40,594 bases of DNA from a virus. Taxonomy: Duplodnaviria > Caudoviricetes. Below the pieces are notes generated by a model. It was given only the letters and a program-made list of their open reading frames with translations, was not told the origin of the DNA and searched no databases. The position numbers and the translations under genes were made by a program. The stretch's first letter is position 1. Every line of letters starts with the position of its first letter. The DNA lies in the IMG/VR virus record IMGVR_UViG_3300049169_000015, positions 1 to 40,594 of that record; one strand, given 5' to 3'. This document shows, one piece after another, positions 9,951 to 26,531 of the stretch.

Positions 9951-10642
9951 CCCCGACCCATCGAGCAGAAGGGATACTCACCCGCCGGTGGCGGTCCCTC
10001 GCGGTGGCCGCCACCCTGGCTGTCCTGTCCGGCGCGGTCCTGTTGGTGTGGCTGCGGATCGACGCGGCTGACGAGCGCGCCGCGCAGCTGGCCAGCGAGG
10101 CGAACCGCCGGGGTACCGCGGTCAGCACGCTGGCTGGTGACGTGCGGGTGCTGCGGGCACAGATCGAGGCGCGGGGGGATACGCCGGCGGCGCCGGATCC
10201 GGCACGGGCGGTCGATGATCTGCCGCAGCGGACTGAGGTGCCGGTGCCGATCCCCGGCCCGCCGGGTCCGCCCGGTGCAACCGTGACCGGCCCGCCAGGA
10301 AAGCCGGGTAAGGCCGCTCCCACACCAACGCCGATCCCGGGGCCGGCCGGTCCGCCCGGGGCGACAGTCACCGGCCCGCCTGGAGCCGACTCCACAGTCC
10401 CTGGCCCCGCGGGTCCGCCCGGTGCGGACTCCACGGTCCCTGGTCCCCAGGGAGAGCGGGGCGAGCAGGGCCCGCCCGGTCCTGCTGGTCAATCCTGTCC
10501 TGAGGGCTACTCGTGGCAGACGCCGGAGTACGACCCGGACGCGAAGGTCTGCCGCCGCGACGGCGCGCCGCCCGCCGACGACAAGCCGGGTGGCGGGCCG
10601 CTGCCTCTCGCACTGGACCCACAGCGCAGGCAGTACCCGTAA
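9947..10642 (+). CDS. Membrane-anchored collagen-like (Gly-X-Y) protein
   Basis: TM segment, coiled coil, GPPGPPG/GPAGPPGADSTVP repeats, C-terminal Cys pair; GTGA coupling. Confidence 0.8.
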   Translation: MTPTHRAEGILTRRWRSLAVAATLAVLSGAVLLVWLRIDAADERAAQLASEANRRGTAVSTLAGDVRVLRAQIEARGDTPAAPDPARAVDDLPQRTEVPVPIPGPPGPPGATVTGPPGKPGKAAPTPTPIPGPAGPPGATVTGPPGADSTVPGPAGPPGADSTVPGPQGERGEQGPPGPAGQSCPEGYSWQTPEYDPDAKVCRRDGAPPADDKPGGGPLPLALDPQRRQYP

Positions 10643-10713
10643 CGCGCACCGTTCCCCGTCCCACGGCTCCGGCCGTACCCTGGCCCAACCAGCAGCCAGA
10701 GAAGGGGAACACC

Positions 10714-11946
10714 GTGGACCTGCCCGACAACCTCCCCATCGGCCAGCGCATCCGAGTCCTCCGTGAATCCCGCGGCATGTCCCGCGAGGTCCTCGCCGGG
10801 ATGTGCGGCCGAGGCCCCGACTGGCTCAAGAAGATCGAGTCCGGTGAACGCCCCCTCAGGTCCAACCCTCTGATCCTGCGACTGGCGGGCGCGCTCCAAC
10901 TGTCGGACGCCTCGGTCATCACCGGCTCCTCCGACGTGGCACAGCCCGTCCAGCACGGCCGCCTGCACCACCCGCAGATGCCCGCCGTCTGGGACGCCGT
11001 GATGAACCGCAGGCTCACCCTCACCCCGGCCTCCGGCCCCGTTGACGTGGCCGGCCTCCAAGGCCGCATCGACCAGACATGGACGCTGTGGCACGCCTCC
11101 GGACAGAACCGGACCGAGGTGCTGCGACTGTTGCCCCGACTGATCCTCGACGCCGAGCAGGCAGCCCGCGCCACCAGCGGCGACCAGCGGCGAGCAGCCC
11201 GCGTAGCCGTGGCCGATGTCTACCGGCTCACCGGCCAGGCCACCGCCTACATCGCCCCCGGAGAGATGGCGTGGGTCGTCGCCGACCGCGCCCTGGCAGC
11301 CGCGCAGGACGCCGACCAGCCCGCCGCCATAGCAGCCGCCGCCTGGAACATGGGCAACATTCTCCGCGAAACGTCGTACGCCGACGAGGCCTTGCGCGTC
11401 GTGACCGAGGCCGCCGACCTGATCCGCCCCCACCTCGACACCGCGCCCGACGACTGGCGCGGTATCTACGGCGCGCTCCAGTTGCACGCCGCGGTGACGG
11501 CTGCACGGGACGGCCGGCAGAGGGAAGCGTGGCGGTTCTGGGGCGCAGGCGACCAGGTGGCCAAGAGCCTGCCCGCCAGTTACGTGCATCCGTCCACGGT
11601 GTTCGGTCGGGCCAACGTCGACTTCCACGAGATCAGCGTGGCCGTTGACCTGAAGACCAGCCAACGCGCGCTGTCCGCCGCCGACGACATCGACCCGGAC
11701 GCGATGCCGTCGGTGGAGCGCCGGGCCCGCCTGTGGGTGGAGGTCGCCCGCGGCCACCTGCAGCGCGGCGACCACACGGCGGCGCTGCACGTGATGCAGA
11801 TGGCGCACGAGATCGGCGCGGAGACGGTGCGCTTCACCCCGTCTGCGCTGACCGCGGTGACGGAGCTGTGGCAGGGAGCGCCGCGAGCGCTGCGCCCGCA
11901 GGCCGCACGGCTCGCGGAGAAGGTCGGCCTGCGCGACGTGGGCTAG
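10714..11946 (+). CDS. XRE-family HTH regulator with C-terminal helical (TPR-like) domain, ~410 aa
   Basis: IGQRIRVLRESRGMSREVLAGMCGRGPDWLKKIESGER HTH; GAAGGGGA RBS before GTG 10714; Ala-rich helical repeats. Confidence 0.85.
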   Translation: MDLPDNLPIGQRIRVLRESRGMSREVLAGMCGRGPDWLKKIESGERPLRSNPLILRLAGALQLSDASVITGSSDVAQPVQHGRLHHPQMPAVWDAVMNRRLTLTPASGPVDVAGLQGRIDQTWTLWHASGQNRTEVLRLLPRLILDAEQAARATSGDQRRAARVAVADVYRLTGQATAYIAPGEMAWVVADRALAAAQDADQPAAIAAAAWNMGNILRETSYADEALRVVTEAADLIRPHLDTAPDDWRGIYGALQLHAAVTAARDGRQREAWRFWGAGDQVAKSLPASYVHPSTVFGRANVDFHEISVAVDLKTSQRALSAADDIDPDAMPSVERRARLWVEVARGHLQRGDHTAALHVMQMAHEIGAETVRFTPSALTAVTELWQGAPRALRPQAARLAEKVGLRDVG

Positions 11947-13111: not shown

Positions 13112-13114
13112 GCC

Positions 13115-13197
13115 CCCTGCCCGCGGCCCCGCCGATCGCCCGCGGGCAGGGACGTCCGCCCCGGCCGTCCGTTACCCCCGTGGCGGACGGCCGGGGC
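13115..13197. terminator. Two tandem stem-loops between convergent genes
   Basis: CCCTGCCCGCGG/CCGCGGGCAGGG (13115-13151) and GCCCCGGCCGTCCG/CGGACGGCCGGGGC (13158-13197). Confidence 0.7.
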
Positions 13198-13437
13198 TCA
13201 CTCGCGTACGAGATCGGCGAGCGGGACACCGATGGCGTCGGCGATGCGGATCAAGTTGTCGAGCAGTGCCGCACGGTGGCCCTGCTCGATCTCGCTCACG
13301 GTGGAGATGCGGATCCCGGCGCGGAGGGCGACGTCCTCCTGGGAGAGGTTCGCGTGGAGCCGGGCGCCACGGATCTGGTCGCCGATGGCCCTGCGTCTGG
13401 CGATGACGCGGTCGGCTGGCATCGGCTGGTGGTGCAC
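13198..13437 (-). CDS. Small XRE-family HTH regulator (79 aa)
   Basis: IGDQIRGARLHANLSQEDVALRAGIRISTVSEIEQG...LIRIADAIGVPLADL. Confidence 0.85.
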   Translation of the reverse strand: MHHQPMPADRVIARRRAIGDQIRGARLHANLSQEDVALRAGIRISTVSEIEQGHRAALLDNLIRIADAIGVPLADLVRE

Positions 13438-13471
13438 CTGCCCACGCTCGCCGGACCATGATCCTAAAGTC

Positions 13472-13524
13472 TTTACGGTGCACCGTAAAAGGGTTGATCA
13501 TGAGGGGTACGGGTACCCCTCATG
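13472..13524. promoter_or_regulatory. Palindromic operator/promoter pair upstream of the small XRE gene
   Basis: Perfect 18-bp palindrome TTTACGGTGCACCGTAAA (13472-13489); 12-bp IR CATGAGGGGTAC-GG-GTACCCCTCATG (13499-13524). Confidence 0.7.
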
Positions 13525-13536
13525 GGCCCAGCACAT

Positions 13537-13676
13537 AGAGCGCCCGCCTGATCGGGAAACTGCCGGGCGGGCAGGGGATGGCCACCAGCGTCCGTACATC
13601 CGCTGCGGTCGTGTCGTCCCCGCTCTGATTCGGTCAGAGCAAAGCCGCCCCACCCCATTACGGGGTGGGGCGGTCT
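13537..13676 (+). ncRNA. Candidate structured small RNA 1
   Basis: Consecutive hairpins 13542-13572, 13574-13621, 13622-13640 and terminator-like 13644-13674; G-U pairs form only on the + strand; no credible ORF. Confidence 0.45.
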
Positions 13677-13682
13677 AATGTG

Positions 13683-13812
13683 AAAGCCAAGACCCCCCGC
13701 CGGTTTTCGCGGCGGGGGGTCCCCTGCGTGCCCACTCTCCCCAGCGGGACAGCGCAGGACGTGGACGGCGTACATCTGGCGCGCGTGGGGAGACGCACCG
13801 GCCCCGTCCACG
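13683..13812 (-). ncRNA. Candidate structured small RNA 2 with complementary loops
   Basis: Minus-strand TTGTTC-N16-TAAAGT promoter-like site (13844-13817); three hairpins, the last followed by UUGGCUUU; loops CUCCCC and GGGGAG. Confidence 0.5.
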
Positions 13813-13979
13813 ATGCACTTTAGCTGTCCTTTGCACGCGAACAAGTCCCCCGGACGGGTGAGCCCACGTCGCATGATCGCTGGGAATGTGGACTCTTAGC
13901 GGACTCCGGGCACGGGAAGACCCCCCAGATGATCACATCTGGAGGGCCGAAACCAGGCTCTCACCTGGCACTTCTCCCC

Positions 13980-14023
13980 GGTGGGCGCGGACGGTTTCGA
14001 ACCGCCGACATCTGCTTTGTAAG
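13980..14023 (-). other. attP common core = 3' half of tRNA-Val(TAC)
   Basis: Reverse complement CTTACAAAGCAGATGTCGGCGGTTCGAAACCGTCCGCGCCCACC: anticodon loop CT-TAC-AA, T-arm GGCGG-TTCGAAA-CCGTC, acceptor strand; adjacent to the integrase 3' end. Confidence 0.9.
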
Positions 14024-14047
14024 TGCTTCCTTCCAGGTCACGCAGCG

Positions 14048-14140
14048 TTTCCGAGAGTTTCCGAGACCCTCCGAGGGACTCCCACTCCCGCGCCCTACCT
14101 CCCGCCGGGGAGGCTCCGAGAAGTGCCGAGACTTTCCGAG
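14048..14140 (+). repeat. Two triplets of 10-bp-phased CCGAG repeats (probable Xis/RDF binding array)
   Basis: CCGAG at 14051/14061/14071 and 14116/14126/14136, between core and arm sites. Confidence 0.7.
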
Positions 14141-14180
14141 CAGGGATTGTGGACTCCCTGTGGATTCCAGCCCACTCTGG

Positions 14181-15452
14181 TCACCCAACGACCCGGAGTC
14201 CACTACCGCCACCCTCCAGCGCAGCCCGCACGTTCTCCCGCGCGTTCTCACTCTCATGCGTGTACAGCCACGTCACCCGACCACCACGCTCCTGACCGAG
14301 CACCGACTGAGTGTCCTTCTCAGACACCCCAGCCTCGTGCAGACGCGTCGTCACCTTGTGCCGGTAGTCGTAGATCCGCGGCCACCACTCGGTCCGCCCC
14401 GTCTCCGGGTTCTTCACCTCGCGGGCGACGCCGGCCTGGACGATGGCCTTGTGCCACGGCCGGGCCAGGTTGTTGATGTTCAGCGCCGCGCCACGCTTCC
14501 CGCGGAACACGAGCTCCTCAATGTGCAGGTCGTACCCGTCGCCGATCCGCGAGTGCGTCGCCTTCGGCTTCCACTTCGCCTTCATGAAGCGGACCGCCTC
14601 GAGCGCCGTCGTCGTCAGTGGGACGGTACGGAACCCGGCCTTCGTCTTCGGCGCCGCCTGCCGTCGCAACCGGCCGCCGTCGTTGATGAGGATCTCCCGG
14701 ATGTGGACCACCATCTCTTCCTCGTCAACGCAGTGGAGCCGCAACCCCGCGTACTCCCCCGGCCGCATCCCGGTCTCGTGCGCGAAGTCCCGCAGGATCA
14801 CCCGGTAGTAGGCGGGCAGCGCCGCGTGGATCAGCTCGTACTGCGCCGCGGTCGGCGGCTTCAGATCGTCCGGGTGCTTCTCCGGCTTCGCCGCCGTGAT
14901 CGTCAGGTTCGCGGCTGGGTTGATCGAGATCCGCTCGCCGTCCTTCACCGCCGCATCGAGCAGGGCGACGAGGAGCTCCTTCGTACGCTTCTGCGTCTCG
15001 TAGCCCTTCACCTCCCGGGTGAGCCACTTCTGCAGCTCCATGTACTCCAGGTCGATGAGCCGGTACCCGGCCCACTTCGGCTCGATGTGCGCCGTCCAGA
15101 TGCCGCGCTTGCGGTTCCTGGTGGTGACGCGCCCCTTCTCACCCTCGACCGTCCACCACTCCGTCCACCACGCACCGAGCCGGATCTTGCCCCGCTCCGG
15201 GTCCCGGTACGTGCGGTCGCGGACCGACGCCCGGACCCTGTCCAGGAAGGCGTCCGCTTCCTTCTTCGTCGGATAGTGCTTCGCCTTCTGCTTGCCGGCC
15301 GGGTCGCGGTAGCGGGCCTGCCAGGAGCCGAGGCAGTCGCGGCGCTTCTTCCTCTCGCCGTACTCCTCGGTGGGGTACCGCTCTATGCACGGCGGGCAGC
15401 CGCACGTCTTGCTGCGGATCTGCCGCGGGTTGTTCATGGCTCTACGCGCCAT
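14181..15452 (-). CDS. int: Tyrosine integrase
   Basis: WQARYRDPAG arm-binding domain, TGMRPGE, PKTKAG, YDYRH, LGQ...VTWLYTH catalytic motifs. Confidence 0.95.
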   Translation of the reverse strand: MARRAMNNPRQIRSKTCGCPPCIERYPTEEYGERKKRRDCLGSWQARYRDPAGKQKAKHYPTKKEADAFLDRVRASVRDRTYRDPERGKIRLGAWWTEWWTVEGEKGRVTTRNRKRGIWTAHIEPKWAGYRLIDLEYMELQKWLTREVKGYETQKRTKELLVALLDAAVKDGERISINPAANLTITAAKPEKHPDDLKPPTAAQYELIHAALPAYYRVILRDFAHETGMRPGEYAGLRLHCVDEEEMVVHIREILINDGGRLRRQAAPKTKAGFRTVPLTTTALEAVRFMKAKWKPKATHSRIGDGYDLHIEELVFRGKRGAALNINNLARPWHKAIVQAGVAREVKNPETGRTEWWPRIYDYRHKVTTRLHEAGVSEKDTQSVLGQERGGRVTWLYTHESENARENVRAALEGGGSGLRVVG

Positions 15453-24866: not shown

Positions 24867-25832
24867 GTGGAGTACTACCGCGACGAGCAGGTGACGCTGC
24901 TCCTCGGCGACGCCCTGGATCAGCTGCGGGCCCTGCCGGACGGCTCGGTCGACTGCATCGTGACGAGCCCGCCGTACTACGGGCTGCGCGACTACGGCAC
25001 CGAAGGGCAGTACGGGCTCGAGGCCACGCCCGCCGAGTACGTTGAGACGATGCGGGCGCTGTTCTCGGAGGCCCGCCGGGTGCTCGCCGACGACGGCACC
25101 CTGTGGCTCAACCTCGGTGACAGCTACGCCTACCCGCCCGGCTCAGCTGGACGGCAGGGCACCGGGCAGCGGAAGGGCCGCACGTTCACCGCCGAGGGCC
25201 GTCCAGGGAAGCGCACGGTTCCGCCGAAGAATCTTCTGATGATCCCTGCCCGCGTCGCCATCGCCCTCCAGGACGACGGCTGGATACTCCGCGCCGAGAT
25301 CATCTGGGCCAAGCGGAACATCATGCCCGAGGCCGTAACGGATCGACCCACCCGGGCACACGAGCAGATCTTCCTACTGACCAAGCAGCCCCGGTACTGG
25401 TACGACGCCGACGCTATCCGTGAGGAAAGCAACGCCGCCCAGGAGGCCCACAACCAGCGGTACGCCCGCCAGTACGAGGCCCACACCGCCCGCGCCGCGA
25501 CAACTGGGCAACCCGGAAACGTCAACAGCGTCGGCATTCACTCCAGGCCCGGCAAGGGCGGCCGAAACGCCCGCACCGTGTGGACGATCTCGCAGACGCC
25601 GAACCCGCAGGCGCACTTCGCAACGTTCCCGCTGGAACTTCCCGCCCGCTGCATCAAGGCCGGCTGCAAGCCCGGCGGAACCGTGCTCGACCCGTTCTCC
25701 GGCTCCGGCACAACGGGAGCAGCAGCCCGGCAGCTCGACCGTCGGTACATCGGTATCGACCTCAACCCGGCCTACCACGACCTCGCCAAGGAGCGGTTCG
25801 CACAGGGCGTCCTGGACTTCGGCGCCGCATGA
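24867..25832 (+). CDS. Orphan beta-class N4C/N6A DNA methyltransferase
   Basis: VTSPPY catalytic motif before VLDPFSGSGTT SAM-binding motif; HFATFP. Confidence 0.92.
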   Translation: MEYYRDEQVTLLLGDALDQLRALPDGSVDCIVTSPPYYGLRDYGTEGQYGLEATPAEYVETMRALFSEARRVLADDGTLWLNLGDSYAYPPGSAGRQGTGQRKGRTFTAEGRPGKRTVPPKNLLMIPARVAIALQDDGWILRAEIIWAKRNIMPEAVTDRPTRAHEQIFLLTKQPRYWYDADAIREESNAAQEAHNQRYARQYEAHTARAATTGQPGNVNSVGIHSRPGKGGRNARTVWTISQTPNPQAHFATFPLELPARCIKAGCKPGGTVLDPFSGSGTTGAAARQLDRRYIGIDLNPAYHDLAKERFAQGVLDFGAA

Positions 25833-25955: not shown

Positions 25956-26531
25956 ATGCACGCCCTGCCCGACTTCCTCACCCACGGCCGCCCCTCCTGC
26001 ACCCCCGCCCTCGCCCACCTGTTCCAGTCCCGTATCCCCGCCGACGAGCAAGCCGCCAAGGACCTCTGCCGCACCTGCCCCCTCCGCCAGCCGTGCGCCG
26101 CCTACGCCCTCGACACCGACGAGCAGTGGGGCACCTGGGGCGGACTCACCCCAACCGACCGCGCCCGGCTCCGCCACGGCGACGGCTGGTGGATCGACGC
26201 CGAAGGCCGCATCCGGCAACCGTGCGGCAGCGATCCGGCGTACCGCACGCACCTGAAGTACCGGGAGCAGCCGTGCGAGGTGTGCCAGGCCGGGCAGGAG
26301 CAGCGCACCGAGGACCGCCGGCGGGCGATCCTGGCTGTCGAGCACGCTCTCCCGGCTGGTGGGTCGGTCCGCGGCTACGACACCCACCGGCGGCTCGGTG
26401 AGGACGCGTGCGTGCCGTGCAAGGCGGCGATGGCCCGCCAGTCCGCGGCGAAGCCTGACAGGCCGCTGGGCAAGGCACGCAGGGCGTCCCGGCCCGCTTC
26501 CTCGTCCGGGCCGATGGCGCTCGCCTCATGA
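25956..26531 (+). CDS. whiB: WhiB-family transcription factor with C-terminal extension
   Basis: C...AKDLCRTCPLRQPC...WGTWGGLTPTDR; GAGGA RBS. Confidence 0.88.
   Translation: MHALPDFLTHGRPSCTPALAHLFQSRIPADEQAAKDLCRTCPLRQPCAAYALDTDEQWGTWGGLTPTDRARLRHGDGWWIDAEGRIRQPCGSDPAYRTHLKYREQPCEVCQAGQEQRTEDRRRAILAVEHALPAGGSVRGYDTHRRLGEDACVPCKAAMARQSAAKPDRPLGKARRASRPASSSGPMALAS

What the first reader, a model, noticed from the sequence alone, without database searches (positions are those of the whole stretch)
13723..13812. RNA2 carries two hairpins with perfectly complementary 6-nt loops
Seen on the minus strand: GCGU[CUCCCC]ACGC (13796-13783) and CCCGCU[GGGGAG]AGUGGG (13748-13731). The two loops are exact complements, each at the apex of its own long stem. 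Established: complementary loops give intramolecular kissing or intermolecular hand-in-hand oligomers, as in phi29 pRNA. CUCC loops also act as anti-Shine-Dalgarno seeds. Inference: a self-locking or multimerising RNA whose seeds are released on binding a partner.
Basis: partly seen in the sequence, partly recalled or inferred. Interest (0 to 1): 0.7.

Follow-up and report, generated by a model that had tools for sequence, protein, structure and literature searches.

The report
Phage RNA pair with matching codes
Many Streptomyces phages carry two predicted small RNA genes facing each other, whose matching 8-letter codes change together from phage to phage, so they likely bind each other and may act as a protein-free poison-and-antidote pair.

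Summary
The two hairpins and their complementary loops (CUCCCC / GGGGAG) are real. They belong to a conserved ~130-nt predicted sRNA (RNA2, minus strand, own -10 box and terminator) beside attP of Streptomyces temperate phages.

Its stems covary. The loops hardly vary: 98% paired, no double change in 46 homologues. Complementarity fades in distant subfamilies while GGAG stays, so kissing is plausible but unproven, and nothing supports multimers.

The stronger signal lies outside the finding. An 8-nt bulge in hairpin 1 (13776-13769) is exactly complementary to a hairpin loop (13593-13600) of a second, convergent, non-overlapping plus-strand RNA (RNA1). The two change together: 17 seed types, at least 23 changes on a tree, and 13 of 13 held-out copies match. 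RNA1's promoter faces an XRE gene across an operator that covaries with the XRE helix.

No conserved ORF was found, and no Rfam family matches. All 3 RNA2 copies that lost their partner loop have a broken -10 box, against 0 of 73 paired copies. Best reading: an RNA-only toxin-antitoxin-like pair with a phage-specific address code. The pairing is strongly supported; toxicity is inferred, not shown.

The parts
14181..15452 (-). Tyrosine integrase
   Evidence: PHROG 1 integrase, E 2e-43
14140..14168 (-). Direct repeats, likely integrase arm-type sites, left of the att core
   Evidence: Repeat family D2; positions; arm-site role inferred from tyrosine-integrase attP anatomy
13980..14025 (-). attP core: 3' half of tRNA-Val(TAC)
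   Evidence: Read from the sequence; a 44-base stretch of this region matches an annotated tRNA-Val at 89%; homologous prophages show the whole tRNA here
13879..13907 (-). Second set of likely arm-type repeats
13817..13822 (-). Predicted -10 box of RNA2 (TAAAGT; TAGAGT in most homologues)
   Evidence: TA...T box present in 73 of 73 automatically paired family-A copies; hexamer tally; promoter role inferred
13684..13812 (-). RNA2, predicted ~130-nt sRNA: hairpin 1, hairpin 2, terminator T1
   Evidence: z -4.2; covarying stems; G.U 122 vs A.C 38 on this strand; minus strand folds better in 60 of 80
13787..13792 (-). Loop 1, CUCCCC (anti-SD-like; complement of loop 2 in family A)
13769..13776 (-). 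Seed: 8 nt GAUGUACG in the 3' bulge of hairpin 1; variable between phages
   Evidence: Top covarying columns with the RNA1 loop
13737..13742 (-). Loop 2, GGGGAG (SD-like GGAG, kept across subfamilies)
   Evidence: G-G-G-G-A-G columns invariant in 46 aligned copies, one of which has an extra A inserted; GGAG in the hairpin-2 region in 79 of 80 by a lenient search
13683..13721 (-). T1, predicted terminator of RNA2 (12-bp GC stem, pyrimidine tail)
   Evidence: 98.5% of cells paired
13507..13682 (+). RNA1, predicted convergent sRNA (variable 5' part, hairpins A and B, terminator C); 5' end inferred from the -10 box
   Evidence: z -6.65, 9 kcal/mol better than the minus strand; plus strand better in 64 of 80, cUUCGg apex 6 vs 0, T in tail 4.6 vs 1.8 of 9; G.U 78 vs A.C 11
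13593..13600 (+). Target loop CGUACAUC of hairpin A (13586-13605), exact complement of the RNA2 seed
13622..13640 (+). Hairpin B of RNA1
13645..13682 (+). Hairpin C with U-rich tail, predicted terminator of RNA1
   Evidence: the simple scan called it on the minus strand in this one sequence
13496..13501 (+). GATCAT, predicted -10 box of RNA1
   Evidence: GATCWT box recurs at this place in homologues; role inferred
13472..13489 (.). Palindrome between two face-to-face GATCAT boxes, likely XRE operator
   Evidence: (I15); palindrome type follows the XRE recognition helix across homologues
13458..13463 (-). GATCAT, predicted -10 box of the XRE gene
   Evidence: role inferred
13198..13422 (-). 74-aa XRE-type helix-turn-helix gene
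   Evidence: found 200-800 nt downstream in 58 of 72 loci with enough flank

Best explanation
RNA2 is a predicted effector sRNA whose variable 8-nt bulge matches a loop of a convergent second RNA gene (RNA1) in each phage, and the two likely bind so that RNA1 would neutralise RNA2, making a probable RNA-only toxin-antitoxin-like module at the prophage end. Shown by sequence and covariation: two structured elements on opposite strands, each with a -10-like box and terminator-like hairpin; a seed/loop match that changes in step; no conserved ORF; an XRE helix that covaries with the palindrome between the XRE and RNA1 promoters. Inferred: (1) RNA2 is made constitutively from a housekeeping-type promoter. 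(2) The 8-bp bulge-loop contact, which cannot extend on either side, forms in the cell (about 90%). (3) RNA2 is the effector and RNA1 the antidote (about 60%), because RNA2 keeps GGAG beyond the seed, while RNA1's constant parts are the target loop and terminator. (4) The SD-like GGAG loop acts on a host partner, most likely the 16S rRNA 3' end, and in family A is masked by kissing with CUCCCC (about 50%). (5) Unopposed RNA2 is costly or toxic, so the pair stabilises the prophage or aborts infection when XRE shuts RNA1 off (about 45%). Diverse seeds would keep the modules of co-resident phages independent.
For: Seed match: 64 of 80 identical at 8 of 8 by script, 3 more by eye where the script picked the wrong hairpin; within-family permutation mean 14.7, max 27 in 10,000. 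The two strongest covarying pairs of the joint alignment are inter-RNA seed pairs, and all five variable seed pairs form a base pair in 46 of 46. On a tree built without the seed: 17 seed types, at least 23 changes; at the five variable columns 8/8, 5/5, 3/3, 5/6 and 11/11 changes coincide. Held-out metagenome copies found with an RNA2-only pattern: 13 of 13 with full flanks match, one at 7 of 8. Three of four inner mismatches are G.U wobbles in the RNA2(-)/RNA1(+) polarity (L113, L326, L158). Strand evidence. Orphans: RNA2 without a cognate loop has a broken -10 box in 3 of 3 (L505=L573 and L593; L595 by eye), against 0 of 73 paired. RNA1 or its loop persists without RNA2 in L506 and L585. 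Architecture parallels par(pAD1): convergent RNAs across direct repeats (PMC7472228, passages). RNA toxins that depend on an SD motif exist (CreT; PMC10097628, passages).
Against: No expression, binding or toxicity data for this locus. The orphans are decayed prophage remnants; L505 has several other substitutions, so broken -10 boxes may be plain decay, and n = 3. L075 (=L425) has lost both seed and target loop yet keeps its -10 box and both loops. CreT needs a mini-ORF, whereas only 2 of 80 RNA2 copies have a start codon 3-11 nt after GGAG. The contact is only 8 bp (-9.6 kcal/mol as a free duplex), with one site instead of par's several, and the RNAs do not overlap. Mismatches against the polarity or outside wobble: L181 position 2, L109 position 1, and position 8 in several B, C and D copies. 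An antidote under a repressor is unusual for a simple addiction module. L489 first looked like RNA1 alone but is an IS-split intact pair and gives no support.
Confidence: 0.45

Rival explanations
1. RNA2 is a non-toxic trans-acting regulator (using CUCCCC or GGAG on host or phage mRNAs, as 6C RNA does with C-rich loops) and RNA1 is an XRE-controlled sponge that switches it off.
For: Same pairing and promoter evidence. C-rich loops bind mRNA targets without chaperones in high-GC Gram-positives (PMC6486639, abstract). L075 keeps an intact promoter without a partner.
Against: CUCCCC is not kept in subfamilies C and D. It does not explain broken -10 boxes in 3 of 3 orphans except as decay.
Confidence: 0.2
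2. RNA2 is the antisense regulator and RNA1 an attenuator: binding decides termination at hairpin C, giving seed-specific secondary immunity as with P4 CI RNA or P1/P7 c4.
For: Seeds diversify as specificity groups do; c4 underlies P1/P7 heteroimmunity (PMC12197685, passage); CI pairs with seqA/seqC to cause termination (PMC4825925, passage). RNA2 has the strong promoter expected of an immunity factor.
Against: No plus-strand gene follows hairpin C: only antisense to RNA2, attP and integrase, and cro is about 2.8 kb away past convergent genes. No covarying antiterminator pair among the top 45 pairs. CI and c4 targets lie in the same transcript (recalled for c4); here the copy is same-sense. 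It leaves the constant GGAG unexplained.
Confidence: 0.15
3. The RNA1-RNA2 complex is itself the active unit: RNA1 binding bends or straightens hairpin 1, breaks the loop-loop kiss and exposes GGAG, or builds a two-piece scaffold for a protein such as integrase.
For: The contact is flanked by mismatches on both sides in the window and the consensus, as in a stable docking rather than a decay duplex. The cassette stays about 160-190 nt from the att core whatever tRNA is used.
Against: Orphan RNA2 would then be harmless, yet its promoter is broken in 3 of 3 (weak). Hairpin B and the 5' part of RNA1 vary widely. No known catalytic motif and no Rfam match.
Confidence: 0.13

Closest known systems
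par(pAD1) / Fst-family type I toxin-antitoxin loci
   Same: Two RNAs from convergent promoters; complementarity arises from a DNA direct repeat read in opposite directions; SD-like sequence held by an intramolecular partner; found on mobile elements (PMC7472228, passages).
   Different: No peptide ORF; one 8-nt repeat instead of DRa plus DRb; two separate terminators and no overlap instead of one shared bidirectional terminator; a divergent XRE and operator; Actinobacteria rather than Firmicutes.
RNA-RNA toxin-antitoxin systems (SdsR/RyeA; CreTA)
   Same: Both partners would be RNAs (PMC8167048, passage); CreT toxicity depends on an SD motif (PMC10097628, passages).
   Different: SdsR and RyeA overlap (recalled). 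CreA silences creT transcription through Cas proteins and CreT has a mini-ORF. Here: a direct bulge-loop contact, no mini-ORF and no cas genes among the 51 window proteins scanned.
P4 CI RNA and P1/P7 c4 antisense RNAs
   Same: Small structured phage RNA with an exposed seed whose sequence sets phage specificity (PMC12197685, PMC4825925, passages).
   Different: CI is processed from the transcript it regulates and has two targets there; RNA2 has its own promoter, one target on the opposite strand, and no downstream gene to control. No Rfam match.
6C RNA of Actinobacteria
   Same: Hairpins with C-rich loops in high-GC Gram-positives (PMC6486639, abstract).
   Different: Only one C-rich loop, faced by a G-rich loop and lost in distant subfamilies; phage-borne with a dedicated partner RNA; no Rfam match.
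phi29 pRNA (recalled)
   Same: Two complementary loops in one RNA.
   Different: No link to packaging genes; loops do not covary; complement not kept across the family.

Membership tests
par/Fst type I TA | Convergent RNAs transcribed across a direct repeat | tested here: met
   Predicted from strand asymmetry and covariation; transcription itself not shown
par/Fst type I TA | Small hydrophobic toxin ORF behind a sequestered SD | tested here: not met
   No conserved frame on the plus strand by eye; short ORFs in 42 of 73 putative RNA1 spans, positions not compared, and family-B RNA1 starts about 10 nt before hairpin A's stem; start codon after GGAG in 2 of 80
par/Fst type I TA | Shared bidirectional terminator | tested here: not met
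   Two tandem hairpins, T1 and C, each with its own tail
RNA-RNA (type VIII-like) TA | Both partners non-coding RNAs | tested here: met
   (absence of a conserved ORF; very short peptides cannot be excluded)
RNA-RNA (type VIII-like) TA | One RNA is toxic and the other neutralises it | not testable with these tools
   Only indirect: broken -10 box in 3 of 3 orphans vs 0 of 73 paired; one counter-case, L075
CreTA | Antitoxin with CRISPR-repeat-like flanks guiding Cas; toxin with SD and mini-ORF | tested here: not met
   No CRISPR-repeat family hit at E up to 1; loop 1 resembles half of a repeat-like motif found in host genomes but the hairpin is incomplete; no mini-ORF
P4 CI / P1 c4 antisense immunity RNA | Seed complementary to targets in the same-strand transcript, upstream of a regulated gene | tested here: not met
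   The copy is same-sense on RNA2's strand; no gene downstream of RNA1; no Rfam match
P4 CI / P1 c4 antisense immunity RNA | Seed-specific superinfection immunity or premature termination | not testable with these tools
   Needs infection and 3'-end assays
   98.2% paired, 0 double changes in family A; one possible swap between A and B; absent in C and D
   Needs native gels
CsrA-sequestering RNA (GGA in a hexaloop; motif recalled) | Host encodes CsrA; multiple GGA loops | tested here: not met
   PF02599 in 0 of 5 cassette-bearing genomes, 3 of 14 controls; a single GGA loop
6C RNA | Match to the Rfam family; two C-rich loops | tested here: not met
   one C-rich loop only

The most novel reading that the evidence does not exclude
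A widespread, protein-free toxin-antitoxin family of actinophages in which a small RNA poisons translation through an SD-mimic loop, is self-masked by a kissing loop, and is disarmed by a second RNA through a freely reprogrammable 8-nt address code under XRE control.
Probability: 0.3. Interest if true: 0.88.

Novelty: new variant of a known kind. Interest (0 to 1): 0.72.

Why it matters
Regulatory RNAs of actinophages are almost uncharted. This pair, whole or in part, is in 14 of 150 Streptomyces genomes sampled and in two culturable phages, VWB and OnionKnight, so it can be tested at once.

Evolution has already run the compensatory-mutation experiment on an intermolecular RNA contact at least 23 times. 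That gives a natural library of orthogonal 8-nt bulge-loop pairs, usable as riboregulator parts in a high-GC host.

If RNA2 is toxic, it extends the very short list of RNA-only toxin-antitoxin systems with a new mode of control: direct seed docking with no overlap, no Cas and no peptide. The RNA2 gene also starts about 150 bases from the VWB att region, which is used in integration vectors, so whether such vectors carry part of it is worth checking.

Tried and rejected
Known RNA families: no Rfam hit for the element at E up to 1 in the window or in 5 homologue loci; only weak matches far below gathering scores. No tRNA gene called in the window.

Hidden peptide: none conserved. The conserved TAR before hairpin C is the reverse complement of RNA1's U-rich tail; I checked its frame by eye in a few copies and found no shared start.

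CRISPR-repeat mimic: loop 1 plus its 3' arm resembles half of a repeat-like motif found in 3 of 5 host genomes, but the other half is missing and Rfam gave no repeat hit. Left as an untested resemblance.

CsrA decoy: rejected. Second inter-RNA contact: none among the top 20 inter-RNA pairs beyond the seed; the others are clade signal with poor pairing.

L489 as an RNA1-only case: withdrawn, it is an IS-split pair.

Searches that were too loose: the genome-contig scan (7 of 120 loci were real, and the scan stopped early), the RNA1 pattern (132 of 391 genomes with many control hits), and the BLAST at E 0.01 (6 of 30 fetched loci real). Named phages gave only VWB and OnionKnight; plasmids gave no full match.

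Expression: contigs from 4 RNA runs of one sample cover the RNA2 region of family-B locus L392. In 3 runs a contig edge falls at 2546-2559, inside T1, and 2474-2545 is uncovered there. Contigs give no strand or level, GC hairpins can break assemblies, and the deepest run covers nearly everything, so this is not counted as evidence.

Literature: searches found no description of this element, and one search found nothing on the vector fragment. The library lacks most subscription papers, including the original VWB and P4 CI papers, and I read no supplements. Earlier scan notes: nothing.

Rows dropped: 2 of 48 family-A copies (L059, L075) were left out of alignments A3 and A4 because their 5' ends were mis-picked or deleted; 5 of 77 candidates lacked an anchor or flank; 3 of 81 copies lacked flanks.

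Full report
Setting. The window is a whole 40.6-kb virus record with the gene set of a temperate siphophage: tail, lysis, integrase, repressor/cro, replication, terminase, portal and capsid. Its relatives at this locus are Streptomyces phages VWB and OnionKnight and Streptomyces genomes. On the minus strand the order is integrase (15452-14181), repeats, a tRNA-Val 3' half serving as attP core (about 14025-13980), repeats, the finding, two GC hairpins and an XRE gene (13422-13198).

The observation. It is the only perfect 6-nt complement among 218 adjacent loop pairs in the window, which alone is weak. I gathered homologues through the XRE and integrase proteins and through loop-dependent and loop-independent patterns. 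This gave 80 copies in four subfamilies: 67 filtered at 92% identity plus 13 genome copies added without that filter. Models built from family A alone recover members of B, C and D on the same strands. In 46 family-A copies all stems covary: 94.5% of cells paired, 27 of 45 pairs with double changes, 0 of 500 shuffles as high, slid controls 43-52%. Relatedness inflates such shuffle tests, but the slid controls agree. A TANNNT box sits just upstream and a 13-pair hairpin closes the unit, so RNA2 is predicted to be an independent ~130-nt sRNA.

The kissing claim. The six loop-loop pairs are 98.2% formed, but loop 2 does not change in the aligned columns and loop 1 changes only C to U, so there are no double changes. 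In subfamily B loop 2 is CGGGAG and loop 1 often ends YYCG, which could be one compensatory swap, with 3-6 possible pairs. In C and D loop 1 has no real complement. GGAG is kept in 79 of 80 by a lenient search; in C it lies next to a CUCCAC that can pair with it (by eye). So GGAG is the constant, and loop 1 is one way of covering it. I put intramolecular kissing in family A at about 60% and multimers at about 5%.

The 8 nt in the 3' bulge of hairpin 1 recur, same sense, in the loop of a hairpin about 175 nt further on (13776-13769 and 13600-13593). They are identical in 64 of 80 copies by script and 67 by eye, against a permutation mean of 14.7 and maximum of 27. In the joint alignment the two highest-scoring covarying pairs of all are seed pairs, and the five variable seed pairs form a base pair in 46 of 46. 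On a tree built without the seed, 17 seed types need at least 23 changes, and changes at the five variable columns coincide 8/8, 5/5, 3/3, 5/6 and 11/11. As a held-out test, 13 of 13 metagenome copies found with an RNA2-only pattern and having full flanks carry the matching loop, one at 7 of 8. Many seeds are not palindromic, so same-sense copies could not pair; the partner must be read from the other strand.

RNA1. The downstream element behaves as a plus-strand RNA. It folds better on that strand in 64 of 80, has G.U 78 against A.C 11, has cUUCGg at the terminator apex 6 times against 0, and has the U-rich tail on that side. RNA2 shows the reverse (60 of 80; G.U 122 against A.C 38). Three of four inner seed mismatches are wobbles in this polarity; one is not. 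The two RNAs end at separate hairpins and do not overlap. Upstream of RNA1 are two facing GATCWT boxes with a palindrome between them. The palindrome type follows the XRE recognition helix across homologues in five recurring helix/palindrome classes, independently of RNA subfamily (read by eye from 62 rows). This points to XRE control of its own gene and of RNA1. The cassette keeps its place: a tRNA T-arm lies upstream in 43 of 63 loci and XRE downstream in 58 of 72, with Val, Arg, Ala, Ile or Trp tRNA targets. It occurs whole or in part in 14 of 150 Streptomyces genomes searched with both models.

No protein product. No frame is conserved in RNA1. Family-B RNA1 begins about 10 nt before hairpin A. 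Only 2 of 80 RNA2 copies have a start codon just after GGAG.

Which RNA does what. This part is inference. RNA2 keeps a motif beyond the seed, implying a partner common to all hosts or phages; RNA1's constants are the target loop and terminator. Natural deletions lean the same way. All 73 automatically paired family-A copies keep a TA...T box. Of 5 unmatched copies, one is a wobble pair, one an IS-split pair, one has lost seed and loop together with its box intact (a counter-case), and two are true orphans with the box broken. A third orphan with a broken box was seen by eye (L595). RNA1 or its loop survives alone in L506 and L585. These are few cases in decayed remnants, so decay is a fair alternative. 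I therefore favour an RNA-only toxin-antitoxin-like pair at 0.45, a non-toxic regulator with a sponge at 0.2, CI/c4-like attenuation at 0.15, a two-piece active complex at 0.13 and multimers at 0.05. That the two RNAs pair I put at about 0.9.

Comparison with known systems. It is laid out like par(pAD1), where convergent RNAs cross direct repeats (PMC7472228, passages), but it lacks the peptide and the shared terminator, so it is not a member. It would work like the RNA-RNA systems (PMC8167048, passage; PMC10097628, passages) but has no overlap, no Cas link and no mini-ORF. It shares seed-defined specificity with c4 and CI (PMC12197685, passage; PMC4825925, passage) but its target is on the opposite strand with no gene behind it. 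6C RNA (PMC6486639, abstract) shows that GC-rich loops suffice for binding in these hosts. Statements on pRNA, on the SdsR/RyeA overlap, on the CsrA loop motif and on housekeeping -10 boxes in Streptomyces are recalled. Neither RNA matches Rfam, and searches found no description in the open library, which does not cover most subscription journals.

Limits. Public RNA contigs from one sample cover a family-B copy but cannot show strand or ends. Transcription, binding, kissing and toxicity all remain to be tested.

Verdict. A real, previously undescribed pair of phage RNA genes linked by a covarying 8-nt code. New variant of a known kind, interest 0.72.

Noticed in passing
window 13458-13501 and homologues: The small XRE's recognition helix covaries with the palindrome between two facing GATCWT boxes in at least five classes, a natural helix-operator code that reassorts independently of the RNA subfamilies.
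   Followed up: partly
L574 / G141:C133:125817-127934: An insertion sequence sits in the loop of terminator T1 and separates RNA2 from RNA1 by about 1.9 kb; both keep matching seeds.
   Followed up: yes
L572:10008-10144 (G628): RNA1 alone directly after an ABC-transporter ATPase-like gene, next to a short tandem duplication, with no RNA2, XRE or tRNA found nearby.
   Followed up: partly
L596 (G023), L585 (G056), L075/L425: Internal deletions: loop 2 and T1 lost with promoter intact (L596); all of RNA2 lost with RNA1's target hairpin kept (L585); seed and target loop both lost (L075).
   Followed up: partly
window 13796-13778: Loop 1 and its 3' arm resemble one half of a CRISPR-repeat-like motif found in tandem in host genomes; the other half is absent.
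   Followed up: partly
window 13918-13948, minus strand: A conserved-position hairpin just past the att core, likely replacing the tRNA terminator after integration.
   Followed up: no
window 13114-13197: Two perfect inverted repeats (14 and 12 bp arms) between the XRE gene end and converging plus-strand genes, likely terminators.
   Followed up: no
window 13499-13524: A 12-bp perfect inverted repeat overlapping the predicted RNA1 -10 box and start; not seen in most homologues.
   Followed up: no
L004:151-302 (VWB): VWB's RNA2 starts about 150 bases from the record end that adjoins its att region, and its seed contains a GCATGC site; whether VWB-based integration vectors carry part of RNA2 could not be checked.
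   Followed up: partly
L392 and other family-B loci: Most family-B cassettes have no tRNA or integrase just upstream, so they are less tied to att than family A.
   Followed up: no
window 10513-11946, 24867-25832, 25956-26531: A large HTH-containing regulator (phrog_5823), a DNA methyltransferase and a WhiB-like protein.
   Followed up: no
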